Origin: an uncultured Candidatus Rokubacteria bacterium
Lineage (GTDB): Bacteria > Methylomirabilota > Methylomirabilia > Rokubacteriales > DASRDR01
Assembly: GCA_963826115.1 (NCBI GenBank)
Contig: CAWGVS010000012.1
Coordinates: forward strand, 736,001-800,000
DNA length: 64,000 bases
Reading direction: 5' to 3'
Positions 1,555 through 5,476 of the stretch are shown one piece after another. Each line of letters starts with the position of its first letter. Positions within the stretch are counted from its first letter, which is position 1. The position numbers and the translations under genes are program-made. The notes below the pieces were generated by a model. It ran no database searches and was not told where the DNA came from. It was given only the letters and a program-made list of their open reading frames with translations.

Positions 1555-1566
1555 CGGCGGCGGCCG

Positions 1567-1923
1567 CTAGCCGCCGGTGAAGAAGCGCTTGATGGACCGG
1601 CCCGCGGACTTCATGCCCTCCCAGACGGACACCCCGAAGCCCTTCGCGCTCTGGCCGACCTTCTCGGCCGCGGGCTTGGTTTCCTTCCCGGCCTCCGCCG
1701 CCCGGTGGCCCACTTCCTTGGCGCCTTCGGAGACCGTCTTGCCGATGCCTTTGGCGGTCTCCTCGACGCCCTTCCCGATCTTCTTCGCCCCCTCGACCAC
1801 CTCACCCGTGCCCTTGGACGGCTGGGCGGCGGCCGCGCCGGGGAGTCCGGCGAGGAGGAGCGCGGCGAGGGCGACGCCGAGCGCGCGGCGGCAGGGGGAG
1901 AAGGAATGCGGTCGTCCCGGCAT
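1567..1923 (-). CDS. Secreted protein with 11-mer amphipathic repeats
   Basis: Signal peptide ending AAA; repeats VVEGAKKIGKG/VEETAKGIGKT/VSEGAKEVGHR. ATG 1923 has a GGAGG SD; the ATG at 1956 overlaps an extended -10 (TGCTACGAT). Confidence 0.7.
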   Translation of the reverse strand: MPGRPHSFSPCRRALGVALAALLLAGLPGAAAAQPSKGTGEVVEGAKKIGKGVEETAKGIGKTVSEGAKEVGHRAAEAGKETKPAAEKVGQSAKGFGVSVWEGMKSAGRSIKRFFTGG

Positions 1924-2015
1924 GTGGGCACCTCCGGTGATGGCCGTCTTTCTCATCGTAGCACCCAGGGCCGGCGCGCCCGGCGACTGACTCCGCGCGG
2001 GCGCGAGGGTCCGAG

Positions 2016-2306
2016 ATGGGGCGCATGCTGGTCGAGTGGGCCGAGACGCTCCTGTTCCTCCTGGCCGGGGGCGTCCTGATCGGCGCGGTGGCCCACCTCC
2101 TCGGCTGGCTCCTCGCCCGGCGGCGGACCGCGGAGCTCGTGTGGCGGGCCTGGAACGTGCTCGGCGCCCTGCTCCTCGGGATCGGGATCCTCGGCATGGG
2201 GTACGCGTGGGTGGAGCTCGGCCTCCAGTCCGGCTGGGGGAGCCTCCTCCTCGGCCTGGGGCTCCTCCTCGCCTCCGCCGGGCTCTGGATGCTCGTCCCG
2301 GTCTAA
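2016..2306 (+). CDS. Small 3-TM membrane protein
   Basis: Three hydrophobic segments, GC3-rich codons, GAGGG SD. Confidence 0.7.
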   Translation: MGRMLVEWAETLLFLLAGGVLIGAVAHLLGWLLARRRTAELVWRAWNVLGALLLGIGILGMGYAWVELGLQSGWGSLLLGLGLLLASAGLWMLVPV

Positions 2307-2344
2307 GCCGCGGGCGCGAGGTTCCGCCGCTCGCGCGGCTGGGT

Positions 2345-2350
2345 TACAAT
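2345..2350 (+). promoter_or_regulatory. -10 element of tRNA-Asn
   Basis: TACAAT 10 nt upstream of the tRNA 5' end. Confidence 0.55.
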
Positions 2351-2360
2351 GCGCGGGCAT

Positions 2361-2697
2361 TCCCCGGTAGCTCAATTGGTAGAGCACGCGGCTGTCGAGT
2401 CGGCAGCGTCCCGGCCGAAAGGCGGGATGGAAAAGCGGGTGAATTCAGGGAACCCTACGTCCGCGAGGATAGGGGAACCCTGAGCGAAGCCCTCGGGCGG
2501 ACGCCGCCCGGGGGACCGTGCAGAGACTAGACCGCAAGGTCGTACTCCGGGGCCCGGGTCGCGGGCGCCGGGGGAAGCGCCCGCCCCCTACGGACGCCCG
2601 ACGGGCGTCTACGGGGATGAGATAGTCCAAGCCCCGCGGAAACGCGGGGGCCCTTGTAACCGCGGGGTTGCAGGTTCGAGACCTGCCCGGGGAGCCA
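2361..2697 (+). tRNA. trnN: tRNA-Asn(GUU), intron-containing (exons 2361-2395 and 2657-2697)
   Basis: Joined exons give a 76-nt cloverleaf: acceptor TCCCCGG/CCGGGGA, anticodon arm CGCGG-CTGT^TAA-CCGCG, T arm GCAGG-TTCGAGA-CCTGC, discriminator G, CCA. Confidence 0.95.
2396..2656 (+). ncRNA. Group I intron (261 nt, no ORF)
   Basis: P1 GCTGT^CG/CGGCAGC with U.G at the splice site; P AATTCAGGGAA 2442-2452; Q AACCCTGAGC 2476-2485; R GTGCAGAGACTAG 2518-2530; S GATAGTCC 2621-2628; P3 GCGGGT/GCCCGC; P9 with GAAA loop; terminal G 2656. Confidence 0.93.
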
Positions 2698-2767
2698 ATC
2701 GCCCGAGGGCCGTCGGCGGTGACGCCGGCGGCCTTCGTGCGTCCGGGGGGGCCGGAGCGGCCGACCG

Positions 2768-3334
2768 TCAGCGCGCGGGCGCGCCGCCGATCAGCGCGGG
2801 CGCCGTGGTGACCGTCGCGAGGAACCCGTTCAGGCTCCCGAGGTGTGTCCGGTGCACCTGGTCGTGCGGCACCACGACCCCGTCGGGTCCCTTGACCGAC
2901 ATCGCGGCCATGGCATCCGAGGCCATGAGGACCTTGAAGCCCCGATGGGCGGCCTCGCGCGCGGTGGTGTCGCAGCACATCTGCGTCATGAACCCCGAGA
3001 CGATCACCTGCTCGATCCCGTGCCGGCGGAGGTGCGCCTCGAGGTCGGTGTTGGTGAACGACCCGGGCAGGTGCTTGGTGACGACGGGCTCGCCCGCGGC
3101 GGGCCGGGCGGCCGGATGGATCTCGAGGGCCGGACTGCCGGGCGCGAACGTGGTGGGATTCGGGCGCCGGCTCTCGTGCACGACGTGGACGACCGGGACG
3201 CCCGCGCCGCGCGCCCACGTGAGGAGATCGGCGATGCGCTCGACGGCGGCGGGGCCGCCGGGGAGGACGACCTTCCCAATCGGCGCGAAGTACTCCTGCT
3301 GAGCGTCAATAACGAGAAGCGCCGTCCTGTCCAT
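2768..3334 (-). CDS. Isochorismatase-family cysteine hydrolase
   Basis: ALLVIDAQQEY, VVTKH..GSFTNTDL, GFMTQMCCDTTAR (Asp-Lys-Cys triad). Confidence 0.92.
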   Translation of the reverse strand: MDRTALLVIDAQQEYFAPIGKVVLPGGPAAVERIADLLTWARGAGVPVVHVVHESRRPNPTTFAPGSPALEIHPAARPAAGEPVVTKHLPGSFTNTDLEAHLRRHGIEQVIVSGFMTQMCCDTTAREAAHRGFKVLMASDAMAAMSVKGPDGVVVPHDQVHRTHLGSLNGFLATVTTAPALIGGAPAR

Positions 3335-3504
3335 CGGGGGGCCTCGCTTTCCGGCGGCGGGCGCCGCGCGGGCGCATGCTACCATGCCGCCTCGGTGGAC
3401 CACTCGCTCGGGACCAGCGGCTTCGGCGGCGTCTCGGGCGTGGTCTCTCTCGCCGCGGCGCCGGCGGCGGTCCCCGCATCGCGCCCGAACGGACGGCGCC
3501 CCGC

Positions 3505-3898: not shown

Positions 3899-5476
3899 AT
3901 GCTCGATCTCCTGATCGCGGGCGGCCTCGTCGTCGACGGCTCCGGCAACCCCGGCTACCACGGCGCGGTCGGCATCGAGGGTGAGCGGGTCCGGCTCTTC
4001 CGGGGCGCGCTCGACGGCATCCAGGCCCACCGGACGCTCGACGCGACGGGGCGCGTCGTCTGCCCCGGCTTCATCGACATGCACGCGCACTCCGGCCTCG
4101 TGATCCTGGCCGAGCCGCGCCACGAGCCGAAGGTCCGCCAGGGCGTGACCACCGAGGTCATCGGCATCGACGGGTGCTCCTACGCGCCGTTCCACTCGCA
4201 CGCCGACCTCGAGCAGTTCGTCGAGATCAACGCCGGCCTGGACGGCTGCCCGCCGCTCCCGGGGCGCTGGGCGACGGTCGAGCAATACCTCGACCTCTTC
4301 ACGAACCGGGTGGCGGTCAACATCGTCTACCTCGTGGGGAACTCGCCGCTCCGGGTCTGCGCGGTCGGCTGGGACGACCGCCCCGCGCGGCCGGCCGAGC
4401 TCCAGAACCAGCGCGCCCTCCTCCGGACGGCCATGGAGGAAGGCGCCTGGGGGATGTCGACCGGGCTCGACTACCCGCCGGGCAGCTACGCGGACACCGA
4501 CGAGCTCGTCTCGCTGTCGGAGGAGGCGACCCGGCTGGGCGGGATCTACCACACGCACGTGCGCTACAGCCTCGGCGACCGCTTCCTCGACCCCTTCCGT
4601 GAGGCGCTCGAGATCGGCCGGCGGGCCCAGATCCCGGCGCACATCACGCACTTCTACCAGCGGACGACCGCGCCCGGCGGCGCGACCGAGATGCTCGGCC
4701 TGGTGGAGGACGCGCGCGAGTCGGGGCTCGACGTGACCTTCGACGGCTATCCGTACGCGTACAGCTCGACGCGGCTCAACATCGTGATCCCGCAGTGGGC
4801 GTTCGACGGCGGCCTGCCCGCACTCCGCCGCAACCTCGCCGACCCCGCGGCGCGGGCGCGGATGAAGAACGAGATGGGCCCCCGCGCGGCCTCGTGGCAC
4901 GAGATGTGGGTGACCCATTTCAAGCGGCCGGAGCACCACCGCTTCGAGGGCCGCTCGGTCGCCGAGGTCGCCGAGCTGATGGGGCTCGACGTCGTCGACG
5001 CGATCTGCGAGCTGCTCCTGCTGGAGGACCAGCAGGTCTCGTACGTCTCGGCCGGCGCGAACATGGCGACGATGCCGAAGTTCGTGAGCCATCCCCTCTA
5101 CATGGTCGGGAGCGACGCGGTCCTGATCGGGGACTACCCGAGCCCGCGGACCTACGGCGCTTTCCCGGTGATCCTGGGGCAGTTCGTCCGCGACGAGGGC
5201 TGGCTTGGGCTGCCCGAGGCCATCCGGAAGATGACGTCGTTCCCCGCCCAGCGCCTCGGCCTCCCCGACCGCGGGCTCCTTCGCGACGGGTTCAAGGCCG
5301 ACGTCGTGGTCTTCGACGCGGAGACCGTGAAGGCGCCGGCCACCCGGCGGGAGCCGAAGCAGTTTGCGATCGGCATCGAGCACGTGATCGTCAACGGCCG
5401 GGTCGTCGTGGACCGGGGCCACCACACCGGCGCCCTCGCCGGACGGGCCCTCCGGCGCGGGCGCCCCTCCACCTAG
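3899..5476 (+). CDS. N-acyl-D-amino-acid deacylase family amidohydrolase
   Basis: PGFIDMHAHS, GMSTGLDYPPG, HTHVR, MVGSDA, KMTSFPAQRLGL. Confidence 0.92.
   Translation: MLDLLIAGGLVVDGSGNPGYHGAVGIEGERVRLFRGALDGIQAHRTLDATGRVVCPGFIDMHAHSGLVILAEPRHEPKVRQGVTTEVIGIDGCSYAPFHSHADLEQFVEINAGLDGCPPLPGRWATVEQYLDLFTNRVAVNIVYLVGNSPLRVCAVGWDDRPARPAELQNQRALLRTAMEEGAWGMSTGLDYPPGSYADTDELVSLSEEATRLGGIYHTHVRYSLGDRFLDPFREALEIGRRAQIPAHITHFYQRTTAPGGATEMLGLVEDARESGLDVTFDGYPYAYSSTRLNIVIPQWAFDGGLPALRRNLADPAARARMKNEMGPRAASWHEMWVTHFKRPEHHRFEGRSVAEVAELMGLDVVDAICELLLLEDQQVSYVSAGANMATMPKFVSHPLYMVGSDAVLIGDYPSPRTYGAFPVILGQFVRDEGWLGLPEAIRKMTSFPAQRLGLPDRGLLRDGFKADVVVFDAETVKAPATRREPKQFAIGIEHVIVNGRVVVDRGHHTGALAGRALRRGRPST

What the first reader, a model, noticed from the sequence alone, without database searches (positions are those of the whole stretch)
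2361..2697. tRNA-Asn(GUU) split inside its anticodon by an ORF-less group I intron
Seen: removing 2396-2656 gives a perfect 76-nt tRNA-Asn with the break at GU^U (35/36). The insert has P1 with a U.G pair at the 5' splice site, P/Q/R/S core motifs, P3 and P7 pairings, GNRA-capped hairpins and a terminal G. Established: classic bacterial tRNA group I introns sit at 33/34, 34/35 or 36/37 of tRNA-fMet, Leu, Ile or Arg. I recall 35/36 Asn/Asp introns being reported from Patescibacteria (verify); a copy in this very GC-rich host may be new. Standard tRNA finders may miss it, and Asn decoding may depend on splicing.
Basis: partly seen in the sequence, partly recalled or inferred. Interest (0 to 1): 0.85.

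Follow-up and report, generated by a model that had tools for sequence, protein, structure and literature searches.

The report
Self-splicing intron in sole tRNA-Asn gene
The only asparagine tRNA gene of this GC-rich soil bacterium is cut in two inside its anticodon by a self-splicing RNA intron, a well-known kind of element that sits here in a tRNA and at a position I could not find described, and whose relatives turn out to be spread over many bacterial phyla.

Summary
Confirmed. Window 2361-2697 is a tRNA-Asn(GUU) gene split between anticodon bases 35 and 36 by a 261-nt ORF-less group I intron (2396-2656). Removing it gives a 76-nt tRNA-Asn. Rfam's group I model matches end to end (35.3 bits, E 1.9e-7), but below its cut-off of 50. 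On 31 related introns the fold is 92% paired, 40 of 81 pairs change on both sides, and the splice-site U.G is invariant. It is the only tRNA-Asn gene ARAGORN finds in this 99%-complete genome. Default tRNA finders miss it.

The host is a Methylomirabilota (Rokubacteria) genome, judged from titles of near-identical records. The intron is in 18 of 20 genomes of its family, and the other two lack the gene altogether. It is sporadic in the sister family, where intronless genes sit at the same recR-linked locus. The same intron at the same site occurs in at least 28 public assemblies from nine or more phylum-level groups and in three viral contigs. Ten of the 28 carry an HNH endonuclease ORF in the P1 loop.

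Ten literature searches found no tRNA-Asn group I intron. Splicing itself is not shown. I rate it a new variant of a known kind, of moderate interest.

The parts
2344..2349 (+). TACAAT, a -10-like hexamer 11 nt upstream of the tRNA 5' end (inferred promoter element)
   Evidence: Read. Relatives carry TACAAT or TAAAAT at the same distance. The consensus scan found no full sigma-70 promoter.
2361..2395 (+). Exon 1 of tRNA-Asn(GUU): tRNA positions 1-35, ending C32 U33 G34 U35
2396..2656 (+). Group I intron, 261 nt, no ORF
   Evidence: RF00028 match 2385-2649; covariation; MFE z -5.94
2391..2407 (+). P1: exon G31-U35 plus intron C1 (2391-2396) pair with the internal guide GGCAGC (2402-2407). U35(2395).G(2403) is the wobble at the 5' splice site. 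The loop is only 5 nt, so there is no room for an ORF.
   Evidence: U.G in 31 of 31 sequences. The pair between intron base 1 and the guide is AU 14, CG 11, GC 2, GU 2, unpaired 2. RNAalifold finds a 7-bp P1.
2409..2427 (+). P2 hairpin with GAAA loop L2 (2417-2420)
   Evidence: The two distal pairs change on both sides in 17-18 of 31 sequences.
2435..2441 (+). P3 5' strand, pairs with 2578-2584
   Evidence: First pair UA 15, GC 13, CG 3; 99.5% of cells paired
2446..2482 (+). P4 (2446-2450 with 2478-2482) enclosing P5 (2453-2475, GCGA loop); the P and Q core motifs
   Evidence: P4 is invariant or G-C/G-U. The distal P5 pairs covary.
2484..2519 (+). P6 (3 bp) and P6a hairpin
   Evidence: 100% of cells paired; 5 of 8 pairs change on both sides
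2523..2529 (+). P7 5' strand with bulged A 2524 (R motif GUGCAGAGACUAG), pairs with 2623-2628; inferred guanosine-binding site
   Evidence: 6 pairs, 100% paired, never vary in 31 sequences. The function is inferred.
2530..2574 (+). Extra domain between P7 and P3': P7.1-like hairpin 2530-2541 (GCAA loop), GUA linker 2542-2544, P7.2-like hairpin 2545-2574
   Evidence: The same two-hairpin fold is predicted in 16 of 31 introns, with GACC/GGUC changing to GAGC/GCUC in P7.1 and unrelated sequences in P7.2. It is also in the single-sequence MFE.
2578..2584 (+). P3 3' strand
2585..2616 (+). P8 hairpin with a symmetric UAC/UAC internal loop (possible tetraloop receptor, by eye)
   Evidence: The 4 basal pairs are 100% paired and 2 change on both sides.
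2617..2628 (+). J8/7 and P7 3' strand (S motif GAGAUAGUCC)
   Evidence: Invariant block in A1 and A2
2629..2655 (+). P9.0 (2629-2631 with 2653-2655) enclosing P9 hairpin 2632-2651 with GAAA loop L9 (2639-2642)
   Evidence: RNAalifold found P9.0 unprompted. Its pairs are AU 25/GC 6; AU 24/CG 5/GC 2; and GC 24/CG 2/UG 1/UA 1 with 3 unpaired. P9 is 96% paired with 6 of 7 pairs covarying.
2656..2656 (+). Terminal guanosine (omega-G), last intron base
   Evidence: G in 31 of 31 sequences (invariant G296)
2657..2697 (+). Exon 2: tRNA positions 36-76 (U36 A37 A38 ... discriminator G, CCA)
2708..2739 (+). 11-bp GC-rich hairpin (GUGA loop) followed by UUCGUG; possible terminator of the monocistronic tRNA gene
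   Evidence: Read. Relatives have a hairpin at the same place, some followed by a T run. The terminator scan did not call it.

Best explanation
This is a functional, ORF-less, self-splicing group I intron inside the anticodon of the organism's only tRNA-Asn(GUU) gene.

Inferred mechanism, following the standard group I pathway:
1. The pre-tRNA is made from its own short transcription unit.
2. The anticodon-loop bases C32-U35, with G31, pair with the intron's internal guide GGCAGC to form P1, placing the U35.G wobble at the 5' splice site.
3. A free guanosine nucleotide bound at P7 attacks after U35 (2395|2396).
4. P9.0 then brings the terminal G2656 into the same site, and the 3'-OH of U35 attacks after G2656. 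This joins U35 to U36 and completes the anticodon GUU.
5. The rest of the tRNA (acceptor and anticodon stems) holds the exons together. No convincing P10 is visible.

The element is a selfish intron made harmless by splicing. This copy has no endonuclease gene, and its family appears to inherit it vertically. HNH-endonuclease-bearing relatives at the same site show how the lineage spreads to intronless tRNA-Asn genes.

Shown here: gene structure, fold with covariation, sole-copy status, distribution. Inferred: catalysis, order of steps, homing.
For: - Exons: when joined they give a canonical 76-nt tRNA-Asn(gtt).
- Model match: RF00028 matches end to end at E 1.9e-7 and is the only group I match in the genome.
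- Fold: on 31 ORF-less tRNA-Asn introns my structure is 92.4% paired, against 80.2% in shuffles and 36-46% when slid. 40 of 81 pairs change on both sides, and 0 of 500 shuffles reach any measure. RNAalifold recovers P1-P6a, P8, P9 and P9.0 on its own.
- Splice sites: the U.G is in 31 of 31 sequences and the terminal G in 31 of 31.
- Sole copy: ARAGORN finds 0 other tRNA-Asn among 65 calls in a 99.09%-complete genome, with all other 19 amino acids and SeC covered. BLAST of the 337 nt finds one place in the genome.
- Conservation: the full-length element is in 13 of 14 other genomes of the genus and 5 of 6 other genera of the family.
- Same locus: the gene sits next to recR with and without the intron.
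- Mobility of relatives: homologous HNH ORFs lie in L1 of 10 of 28 tRNA-Asn introns from other phyla and in G210 of this phylum.
Against: - The Rfam score (35.3) is below the curated cut-off (50). In the tool's control, 8 of 14 well-known genomes also give sub-threshold hits at E <= 1.
- No spliced junction of this organism was seen. Four soil RNA libraries gave contigs over both exon-intron junctions and the intron but no 2395>2657 joint. Reads that continue from 2395 into TAACC... differ in the anticodon stem and belong to other organisms.
- P4 and P7 never vary, so they say nothing for or against the structure.
- No P10 pairing, consensus promoter or terminator was found.
- Self-splicing without a protein helper is assumed, not tested.
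Confidence: 0.88

Rival explanations
1. The intron is a decaying, splicing-dead relic, and this gene is a pseudogene. Asn codons are read by a tRNA encoded in an unassembled part of the genome.
For: The genome is in 12 contigs with 5.34% contamination, so a missing small gene cannot be excluded. No spliced read was seen. The Rfam score is below the cut-off.
Against: All core helices are kept by compensatory changes across the family and across phyla. The exons stay a perfect cloverleaf in 18 genomes of the family. No second tRNA-Asn was detected in G000. No uninterrupted copy matched in the 18 family genomes searched with the 337 nt; the only second match, G002:C188, is itself intron-bearing.
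Confidence: 0.03
2. The intron splices but depends on a host protein, or has been co-opted as a control point that ties tRNA-Asn supply to the guanosine-nucleotide pool or to RNA-folding conditions.
For: It is fixed in the sole tRNA-Asn gene of a whole family. It carries a conserved extra domain between P7 and P3'. Unspliced sequence is present in RNA libraries (DNA carry-over not excluded). That some group I introns need protein helpers is established knowledge (reviewed in PMC3984707, passages seen).
Against: Nothing in the sequence points to a sensor or a protein site. Fixation of an ORF-less intron is what vertical inheritance after loss of the endonuclease gene predicts. Intronless genes work in sister lineages.
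Confidence: 0.07
3. The window's copy is a recent horizontal arrival that is still mobile, not an old vertically inherited resident.
For: The lineage as a whole crosses phyla. The nearest non-Methylomirabilota relatives of this intron type are in records titled Elusimicrobia, Eubacteriales and Aminicenantales (97/99* clade of 16). Related introns occur in viral contigs.
Against: There is no endonuclease ORF and no remnant, since L1 is 5 nt. The introns of the genus form one starred clade (7 rows, 100/99*) nested among those of the other family genera. The intron is present in every family genome in which the gene was found (18 of 18).
Confidence: 0.02

Closest known systems
Pre-tRNA-Ile(CAU) group I intron of Azoarcus sp. 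BH72 (subgroup IC3; crystal structures cited in PMC3984707, passage seen)
   Same: Both are small ORF-less group I introns in the anticodon loop of a bacterial tRNA gene. P1 is built from anticodon-loop bases, and L2 and L9 are GAAA loops. In my scan, introns in tRNA(CAU) genes at 36/37 of Gammaproteobacteria and an Azonexus MAG share this intron's core motifs (40 of 80 loci).
   Different: Host gene and site differ: Asn GUU at 35/36 against Ile CAU at 36/37. The guide sequence therefore reads CUGU rather than UCAU. This intron is 261 nt and has two extra hairpins between P7 and P3'. That the Azoarcus intron is about 205 nt and lacks them is recalled, not tested here.
Cyanobacterial and plastid tRNA-Leu(UAA) intron (Anabaena type)
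   Same: Both are anticodon-loop group I introns that are vertically inherited in a lineage and ORF-less. In both, the tRNA body is expected to hold the exons; this rests on the title of Zaug et al. 1993, seen only in the reference list of PMC3984707.
   Different: Host tRNA, site and lineage differ. No extra P7-P3' domain in the Leu intron (recalled).
Synechocystis PCC 6803 tRNA-fMet intron encoding an endonuclease specific for the tRNA-fMet anticodon region (Bonocora and Shub 2001; title seen in the reference list of PMC3984707)
   Same: It is a tRNA anticodon-loop intron lineage in which some members carry a homing endonuclease gene and others do not, with a sporadic distribution.
   Different: The endonuclease of the tRNA-Asn lineage is an HNH or HNH_2 protein of about 105-125 aa placed in L1, with its 3' end reading through P2-P4. 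That the fMet enzyme is of another fold is recalled. The window's copy has no ORF.
Phage group I introns in protein-coding genes with P7.1/P7.2 (subgroup IA2, such as T4 td and Twort; recalled)
   Same: A peripheral domain sits between P7 and P3'. Most of the 83 viral contigs found by the pattern carry the shared core motifs GAAUUCAGGG.A.CCU ... CCUGAGC in introns without a tRNA around them (69 of the 80 loci read had no tRNA call). The 8 of these I read in full looked to lie in protein-coding sequence and had a stem-plus-inner-hairpin domain there.
   Different: Host genes are proteins, not tRNAs. The subgroup of the present intron could not be assigned because Rfam holds a single model for all group I introns.

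Membership tests
Group I intron (Rfam RF00028) | P1 helix between the 5' exon end and an internal guide, with a U.G wobble at the 5' splice site | tested here: met
   U.G in 31 of 31 sequences; the neighbouring pair covaries as AU 14, CG 11, GC 2, GU 2
Group I intron (Rfam RF00028) | Conserved core P3-P4-P5-P6 and P3-P7-P8-P9 with the P3/P7 pseudoknot | tested here: met
   92.4% of cells paired; 40 of 81 pairs change on both sides; 0 of 500 shuffles as high; slid controls 36-46%. RNAalifold agrees for all nested helices. P4 and P7 pair everywhere but never vary.
Group I intron (Rfam RF00028) | Terminal guanosine at the 3' splice site, positioned by P9.0 | tested here: met
   G in 31 of 31 sequences; three P9.0 pairs with compensatory changes
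Group I intron (Rfam RF00028) | Covariance-model score at or above the curated gathering score | tested here: not met
   35.3 bits against 50. The match is full length (1-253), with E 1.9e-7 locally and 6e-7 genome-wide. The model treats the 46-nt P7.1/P7.2 domain as an insertion.
Group I intron (Rfam RF00028) | Guanosine-dependent self-splicing | not testable with these tools
   RNA-library contigs cover the unspliced junctions, and no joint of this organism was seen
Bacterial tRNA anticodon-loop introns as described (subgroup IC3) | Inserted in the anticodon loop of a bacterial tRNA gene, with P1 made from loop bases | tested here: met
Bacterial tRNA anticodon-loop introns as described (subgroup IC3) | Host gene and site among those in print (Leu-UAA, fMet, Ile-CAU, Arg-CCU; cyanobacteria, alpha- and beta-proteobacteria) | tested here: not met
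   The host is Asn-GUU at 35/36 in Methylomirabilota. The reviews I read in passages list none (PMC3984707 has 0 'Asn'; PMC4033280; the tRNAscan-SE 2.0 paper names fMet and Ile2 only).
Bacterial tRNA anticodon-loop introns as described (subgroup IC3) | Compact fold with no helices between P7 and P3' (definition recalled) | tested here: not met
   Two hairpins at 2530-2574. A domain is present there in all 31 aligned introns, in three forms. It is absent from one viral tRNA-Asn intron of 197 nt, L210.
Bacterial tRNA anticodon-loop introns as described (subgroup IC3) | GAAA loops L2 and L9 docking into receptors in P8 and P5 | tested here: inconclusive
   L9 GAAA is invariant (G279 A280 A281 A282). 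L2 is a GNRA loop in most sequences. The receptor-like internal loops in P5 and P8 were judged by eye only.
Mobile group I intron with a homing endonuclease gene | Endonuclease ORF inside the intron | tested here: not met
   The window's L1 is 5 nt and holds no ORF. Relatives do carry one: G210 has a 124-aa HNH ORF, and so do 10 of 28 tRNA-Asn introns of other phyla, 2 of them truncated.

The most novel reading that the evidence does not exclude
The window holds one member of a large, so far undescribed lineage of mobile group I introns that targets the shared CUGU anticodon loop at 35/36. The hosts are tRNA-Asn(GUU) and, in viral contigs, tRNA-Asp(GUC). The lineage has its own family of small HNH homing endonucleases inserted in the P1 loop and has crossed at least nine bacterial phylum-level groups, possibly with phages as carriers. 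In one Methylomirabilota family it lost the endonuclease and became fixed in the only tRNA-Asn gene, so all Asn decoding there depends on a ribozyme.
Probability: 0.5. Interest if true: 0.6.

Novelty: new variant of a known kind. Interest (0 to 1): 0.5.

Why it matters
- Annotation. Pipelines that rely on default tRNA finders will report these genomes as lacking tRNA-Asn. Here ARAGORN and the Rfam tRNA model both miss it. This could distort completeness or codon-usage inferences for Methylomirabilota and for the other lineages that carry the intron.
- Intron biology. The few tRNA genes and bacterial lineages listed for such introns in the reviews I read would gain a fifth host tRNA and a new site. 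The HNH endonuclease family would be only the second kind of tRNA-intron endonuclease I know of; that comparison is recalled.
- Old question. The lineage offers intron-plus, intron-minus, ORF-plus and ORF-remnant alleles at one orthologous locus. This is good natural material for asking whether tRNA introns are ancient residents or mobile invaders.
- Practical use. The GC-rich 261-nt version, with covariation-supported helices, could serve as a stable small ribozyme.

Tried and rejected
- RNA evidence for splicing. Of 22 runs listed, 6 are RNA, all with small shares of the query words. I laid four soil metatranscriptome runs kept as contigs. Contigs cover exon 1-intron (X16, 2353-2419, 1 difference), the intron (X17, 2521-2638, 1 difference) and intron-exon 2 (X17, 2609-2680, 2 differences). 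No joint 2395>2657 of this organism appeared. Loose ends at 2395 that continue TAACC... differ from this gene's stem. The two listed joints are other tRNAs. Contigs cannot show levels, and DNA carry-over is not excluded, so this is inconclusive.
- Consensus promoter and terminator scan of 2150-2900: 0 and 0.
- The search of earlier findings was not open.
- I built no covariance model of my own, because the full intron exceeds the size the tool text says it will calibrate in time. I therefore have no census beyond BLAST and one pattern.
The pattern is not specific to tRNA introns.
- Rows dropped from the phylum scan. Eight f2 genomes (G059, G167, G171, G185, G189, G190, G226, G235) and the f7 genome G083 matched only 22-46 nt of GC-rich sequence within query bases 82-193 and were not counted as introns. 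G101 was not counted either (see noticed in passing). G207 and G231 are counted from their match to the core but were not read.
- One search used guessed coordinates for four sequences and added nothing; one search replaced it.
- The PDB sequence search with an HNH ORF gave only weak hits. The best was a group II intron maturase, E 0.028. NCBIfam gave none.
- I rejected ARAGORN's own intron mode as a guide to identity. It placed the break wrongly and called several of these genes Thr(tgt), Asp(gtc), Gln(ctg) or Arg(ccg). Sliding the break under the rule 'exon ends in U, intron ends in G' gave Asn(GUU) or CAU.
Supplementary File S5 of the tRNAscan-SE 2.0 paper lists genomes with missing tRNAs and might bear on novelty.
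Full report
**What is there**

Window 2361-2697 reads as a tRNA gene in two pieces.
- Exon 1 is 2361-2395, 35 nt, ending ...GGCUGU.
- The insert is 2396-2656, 261 nt, beginning with C and ending with G.
- Exon 2 is 2657-2697, 41 nt, beginning UAACC and ending with an encoded CCA.

A script that removed the insert gave ARAGORN a canonical 76-nt tRNA-Asn(gtt). By standard tRNA numbering the break falls between U35 and U36, inside the anticodon GUU. Default tools do not see the gene. ARAGORN on the window reports only a tRNA-Leu and a tRNA-Ala elsewhere. Rfam at gathering thresholds reports only those two.

**Is the insert a group I intron?**

- With permissive thresholds on 2300-2760, Rfam's Intron_gpI model (RF00028) matches 2385-2649 over its whole length (1-253). 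The score is 35.3 bits and the E-value 1.9e-7. This is below the curated cut-off of 50.
- It is the only group I match in the whole genome, at E 6e-7.
- Sub-threshold hits of this model are common, so I did not rest on it. In the tool's control, 8 of 14 well-known genomes give a hit at E <= 1.
- The 337-nt precursor folds to -194.9 kcal/mol, against -162.7 +/- 5.4 for 100 shuffles (z -5.94). That single-sequence fold already contains P1, P2, P3, P4, P5, P6/P6a, two hairpins after P7, and P8.

**Relatives and the exact insertion point**

- The window lies in a 6.24-Mb, 12-contig genome that is 99.09% complete, 5.34% contaminated and 70.5-72.8% G+C.
- BLAST of the 337 nt against 60 relatives found the whole element in 13 of 14 other genomes of the genus and in 5 of 6 other genera of the family, at 76-93% identity.
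- The two family genomes without a hit (G012, 91% complete; G019, 99%) have no group I match and no tRNA-Asn 3' exon either. In them the gene is simply not found; they are not empty sites.
- In every copy exon 1 ends ...GGCTGT, the intron ends in G and exon 2 starts TAACC.
- Seven genomes of the sister family have the same tRNA-Asn gene uninterrupted, reading CTGT|TAAC. One of the seven, L030, is from the unpublished genome G038.
- recR lies directly upstream of the gene in both intron-bearing and intronless genomes. These are therefore alleles of one locus.
- In the window the order is ybaB (255-947), recR (955-1554), about 800 nt without a Pfam match, the tRNA gene, an isochorismatase-family gene on the minus strand (2768-3403) and an amidohydrolase (3899-5476).

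**Structure and covariation**

I aligned 31 ORF-less tRNA-Asn introns: 15 from this phylum and 16 from other phyla (alignment A2). I then counted pairs for a structure derived from the window's sequence.

| Measure | Result |
|---|---|
| Cells forming a standard pair | 92.4% of 2489 |
| Same, column shuffles | 80.2% |
| Same, 3' partners slid | 36-46% |
| Pairs with a change on both sides | 40 of 81 |
| Shuffles reaching any of the five measures | 0 of 500 |

Details per helix:
- The splice-site U.G is present in 31 of 31 sequences.
- The next P1 pair, between intron base 1 and the guide, is AU 14, CG 11, GC 2, GU 2 and unpaired 2.
- The first P3 pair is UA 15, GC 13, CG 3.
- P6, P6a, P8, P9 and the outer part of P5 all covary.
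- P4 and P7 pair everywhere but never vary, so they are uninformative.
- The tRNA stems behave as expected and serve as a positive control within the same count.
- RNAalifold, which did not know my structure, returned the same nested helices. It added P9.0, three pairs that link the bases after P7 (2629-2631) to the three bases before the terminal G (2653-2655). Their pair types are AU 25/GC 6; AU 24/CG 5/GC 2; and GC 24/CG 2/UG 1/UA 1 with 3 unpaired.
- The last intron base is G in all 31 sequences.

One caveat the tool itself gives: the sequences are related, and the structure was derived from one of them. The slid and shuffled controls therefore overstate somewhat.

**An extra domain**

All 31 introns carry additional structure between the 5' strand of P7 and the 3' strand of P3.
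- Sixteen have the window's form: the 11 type-A Methylomirabilota rows plus records titled Eubacteriales (three), Aminicenantales and Elusimicrobia. It consists of a 4-bp hairpin with a tetraloop, a GUA(C) linker, and a second hairpin whose sequence is free but whose pairing is kept. The first hairpin changes from GACC/GGUC to GAGC/GCUC.
- Thirteen have a single stem around a conserved loop (UGAGGA..CC..CCAAUAA).
- Two have a third form.

A domain at this place is what I recall as P7.1/P7.2 of subgroup IA introns. I recall the described tRNA introns (IC3) as lacking it. One 197-nt viral tRNA-Asn intron (L210) does lack it. Rfam has a single model for all group I introns, so I could not assign a subgroup.

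**Sole tRNA-Asn gene**

ARAGORN on the whole genome made 65 calls covering 19 amino acids plus SeC and a tmRNA, and none for Asn. The 337-nt query hits one place in the genome. In relatives the same search finds isolated 35-nt exons at E about 1e-5. Within the limits of a 12-contig assembly, Asn decoding therefore depends on removal of this intron.

**Who the host is and how far the intron reaches**

- A scan of one genome per species (185,579 species) used a pattern of two core motifs.
- Two records titled Candidatus Methylomirabilia/Methylomirabilota carry near-identical copies (L074, L105). That is my basis for naming the phylum.
- ARAGORN called a tRNA around the match in 69 of the 80 loci. 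I re-placed each break under the rule 'exon ends in U, intron ends in G'.
- 28 loci are tRNA-Asn(GUU) split at CUGU|UAA.
- 40 loci are tRNA(CAU) split at CUCAU|AA (36/37), in Gammaproteobacteria and an Azonexus MAG. This is the gene and site of the classical Azoarcus intron.
- One locus (L089) is unclear. The remaining 11 loci had no call; in several the match lies close to the locus end.
- The record titles of the 28 Asn loci name Eubacteriales, Heliobacteriaceae, Pyrinomonadaceae, Blastocatellaceae, Acidobacteriota, Aminicenantales, Elusimicrobia, Binatia, Nitrospira and Nitrospirales, Pirellulales, PVC group, Ignavibacteriota, delta-proteobacteria and Methylomirabilota.
- Several sit on contigs of 0.24-3.0 Mb, which makes mis-binning an unlikely explanation for all of them.
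- These names are record titles of MAGs, and the counts are a truncated sample.

**Distribution within the phylum**

- Of 251 genomes in 13 families, the intron is in 18 of 20 genomes of the window's family.
- It is in 11 of 159 genomes of the sister family f2. I read nine of these; two are counted from core matches only.
- It is in 1 of 1 genome of family f5.
- The rows I dropped are listed under Tried and rejected.

**Mobility**

- In G210 (L063) the P1 loop holds an ORF. It is preceded by AAGGAGG and starts at a GTG 8 nt downstream.
- The ORF encodes 124 aa with ...CxxCGY...EFHH...CANCHREVH. Its 3' end reads through P2-P4, so the RNA motif GGUGAAUUCAGGGAA is read as GEFRE.
- G025's contig ends inside the same ORF, and G045 keeps a remnant of about 30 nt.
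- Ten of the 28 tRNA-Asn introns from other phyla are 541-578 nt long and carry a homologous ORF in the same place. Eight look whole (105-173 aa) and two are truncated.
- Of the four ORFs scanned against Pfam, two matched HNH_2 (PF13391, E 2e-6 and 3.7e-5) and HNH. A third matched only HNH, below its cut-off. The fourth matched nothing.
- NCBIfam has no model, and no close solved structure exists.

**Intron tree**

The tree has 39 rows and 251 columns, with tRNA(CAU) introns as outgroup.
- The window's type in Methylomirabilota forms one clade (11 rows, 100/99*). The genus is a starred sub-clade nested among the other family genera.
- That clade lies inside a starred clade of 16 (97/99*) together with the Elusimicrobia, Eubacteriales and Aminicenantales introns.
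- The other Methylomirabilota introns (G024, G209, G234) lie outside it, with Nitrospira, Binatia and a delta-proteobacterial intron.
- So at least two intron lineages occupy this site within the phylum, and both lineages cross phyla.
- Two outgroup rows were cut wrongly at their 3' end by my script. The tree is of a short RNA, and 10 of its 36 inner branches are unresolved.

**Viral contigs**

The same pattern hit 83 IMG/VR contigs. In 69 of the 80 loci read, no tRNA surrounds the match; the 8 of these I read in full looked to lie in protein-coding sequence. The pattern is therefore not specific to tRNA introns.
- Three contigs hold tRNA-Asn with the intron at 35/36 (L210, L226, L242). L242 also has the HNH ORF tail.
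- Two contigs hold a tRNA-Asp(GUC) split at GU|C (L198, L253).
- At least four contigs hold the CAU type.

**Expression**

See Tried and rejected. RNA-library contigs cover the unspliced junctions, and no spliced joint of this organism was seen. This is inconclusive.

**Literature**

- Ten full-text searches found no paper that describes a group I intron in a bacterial tRNA-Asn gene.
- I read passages only, not whole papers.
- The 2014 review of bacterial group I introns (PMC3984707) has no occurrence of 'Asn'.
- Fujishima and Kanai 2014 (PMC4033280) list such tRNA introns only for cyanobacteria and alpha- and beta-proteobacteria.
- The tRNAscan-SE 2.0 paper reports tRNAs missed because of group I introns only for fMet and Ile2.
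- tRNADB-CE 2008 reports intron-bearing tRNA-Leu(TAA) genes in Burkholderia.
- Mohanta et al. 2017 (PMC5733544)-49-nt inserts in cyanobacterial tRNA-Arg, Gly and Lys 'group I introns', which is not this.
- The library lacks most subscription journals and all supplements, so 'not found' is not 'not published'.

**Verdict**

The element is an ordinary kind of thing, a tRNA anticodon-loop group I intron. Its host tRNA, insertion site, extra domain and associated HNH endonuclease family are ones I could not find described. It is widespread rather than peculiar to this genome. What remains unshown is catalysis.

Noticed in passing
L198 and L253 (viral contigs IMGVR_UViG_3300010429_001696 and IMGVR_UViG_3300025715_000487): A tRNA-Asp(GUC) gene split at GU|C (35/36) by a 228-nt-class group I intron with the same guide GGCAGC. 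The CUGU loop shared by Asn, Asp, His and Tyr tRNAs may define the target range of this intron lineage.
   Followed up: partly
L063:1190-1564 (G210); also L079, L080, L086, L108, L113, L135, L139, L143: A conserved family of HNH proteins, mostly 105-125 aa (one is 173 aa), is encoded in the P1 loop of tRNA-Asn introns of several phyla. The ORF's last codons are read from the ribozyme's P2-P4 (GGUGAAUUCAGGGAA = GEFRE). There is no NCBIfam model and no close PDB relative.
   Followed up: partly
L064-L143: 40 loci, such as L094 Rhodanobacter fulvus Jip2, L112 Dyella mobilis, L078 Lysobacter daejeonensis, L123 Azonexus sp.: tRNA(CAU) genes (Ile2-like acceptor ...GGGCCCACCA) of many Gammaproteobacteria, including cultured RefSeq strains, carry a 228-291-nt group I intron at 36/37. 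It shares the core motifs and a domain between P7 and P3'. ARAGORN's intron mode mislabels them Gln(ctg) or Arg(ccg).
   Followed up: partly
G002:C188 (L032:252-584, minus strand): A second, 68%-identical intron-bearing tRNA-Asn gene sits on a 4.4-kb contig of a same-genus genome. Its intron groups with one from a delta-proteobacterial MAG (99/100*). It is either a mis-binned contig or a second gene.
   Followed up: partly
G101:C127 (L042 = L105, JAKEHP010000137.1, 1200 nt): A 1.2-kb contig in a genome of another order (9% contamination) carries a copy 91% identical to the window's element, including the genus-specific upstream sequence. It is probably a mis-binned contig of the window's genus, and I did not count it as presence in that order.
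   Followed up: no
Whole genome G000: ARAGORN also lists a tRNA-Pyl(cta), a tRNA-SeC(tca) and three tRNA-??? calls with odd anticodon loops. None lies in the finding, and none was checked.
   Followed up: no
window 1555-2360: About 800 nt lie between recR and the tRNA gene, where sister-family genomes have under 70 nt. No Pfam family matched the two ORFs tested (1577-1990 +, 1802-2197 -). A short ORF ending at the TAA of 2304-2306 is conserved in L042.
   Followed up: no
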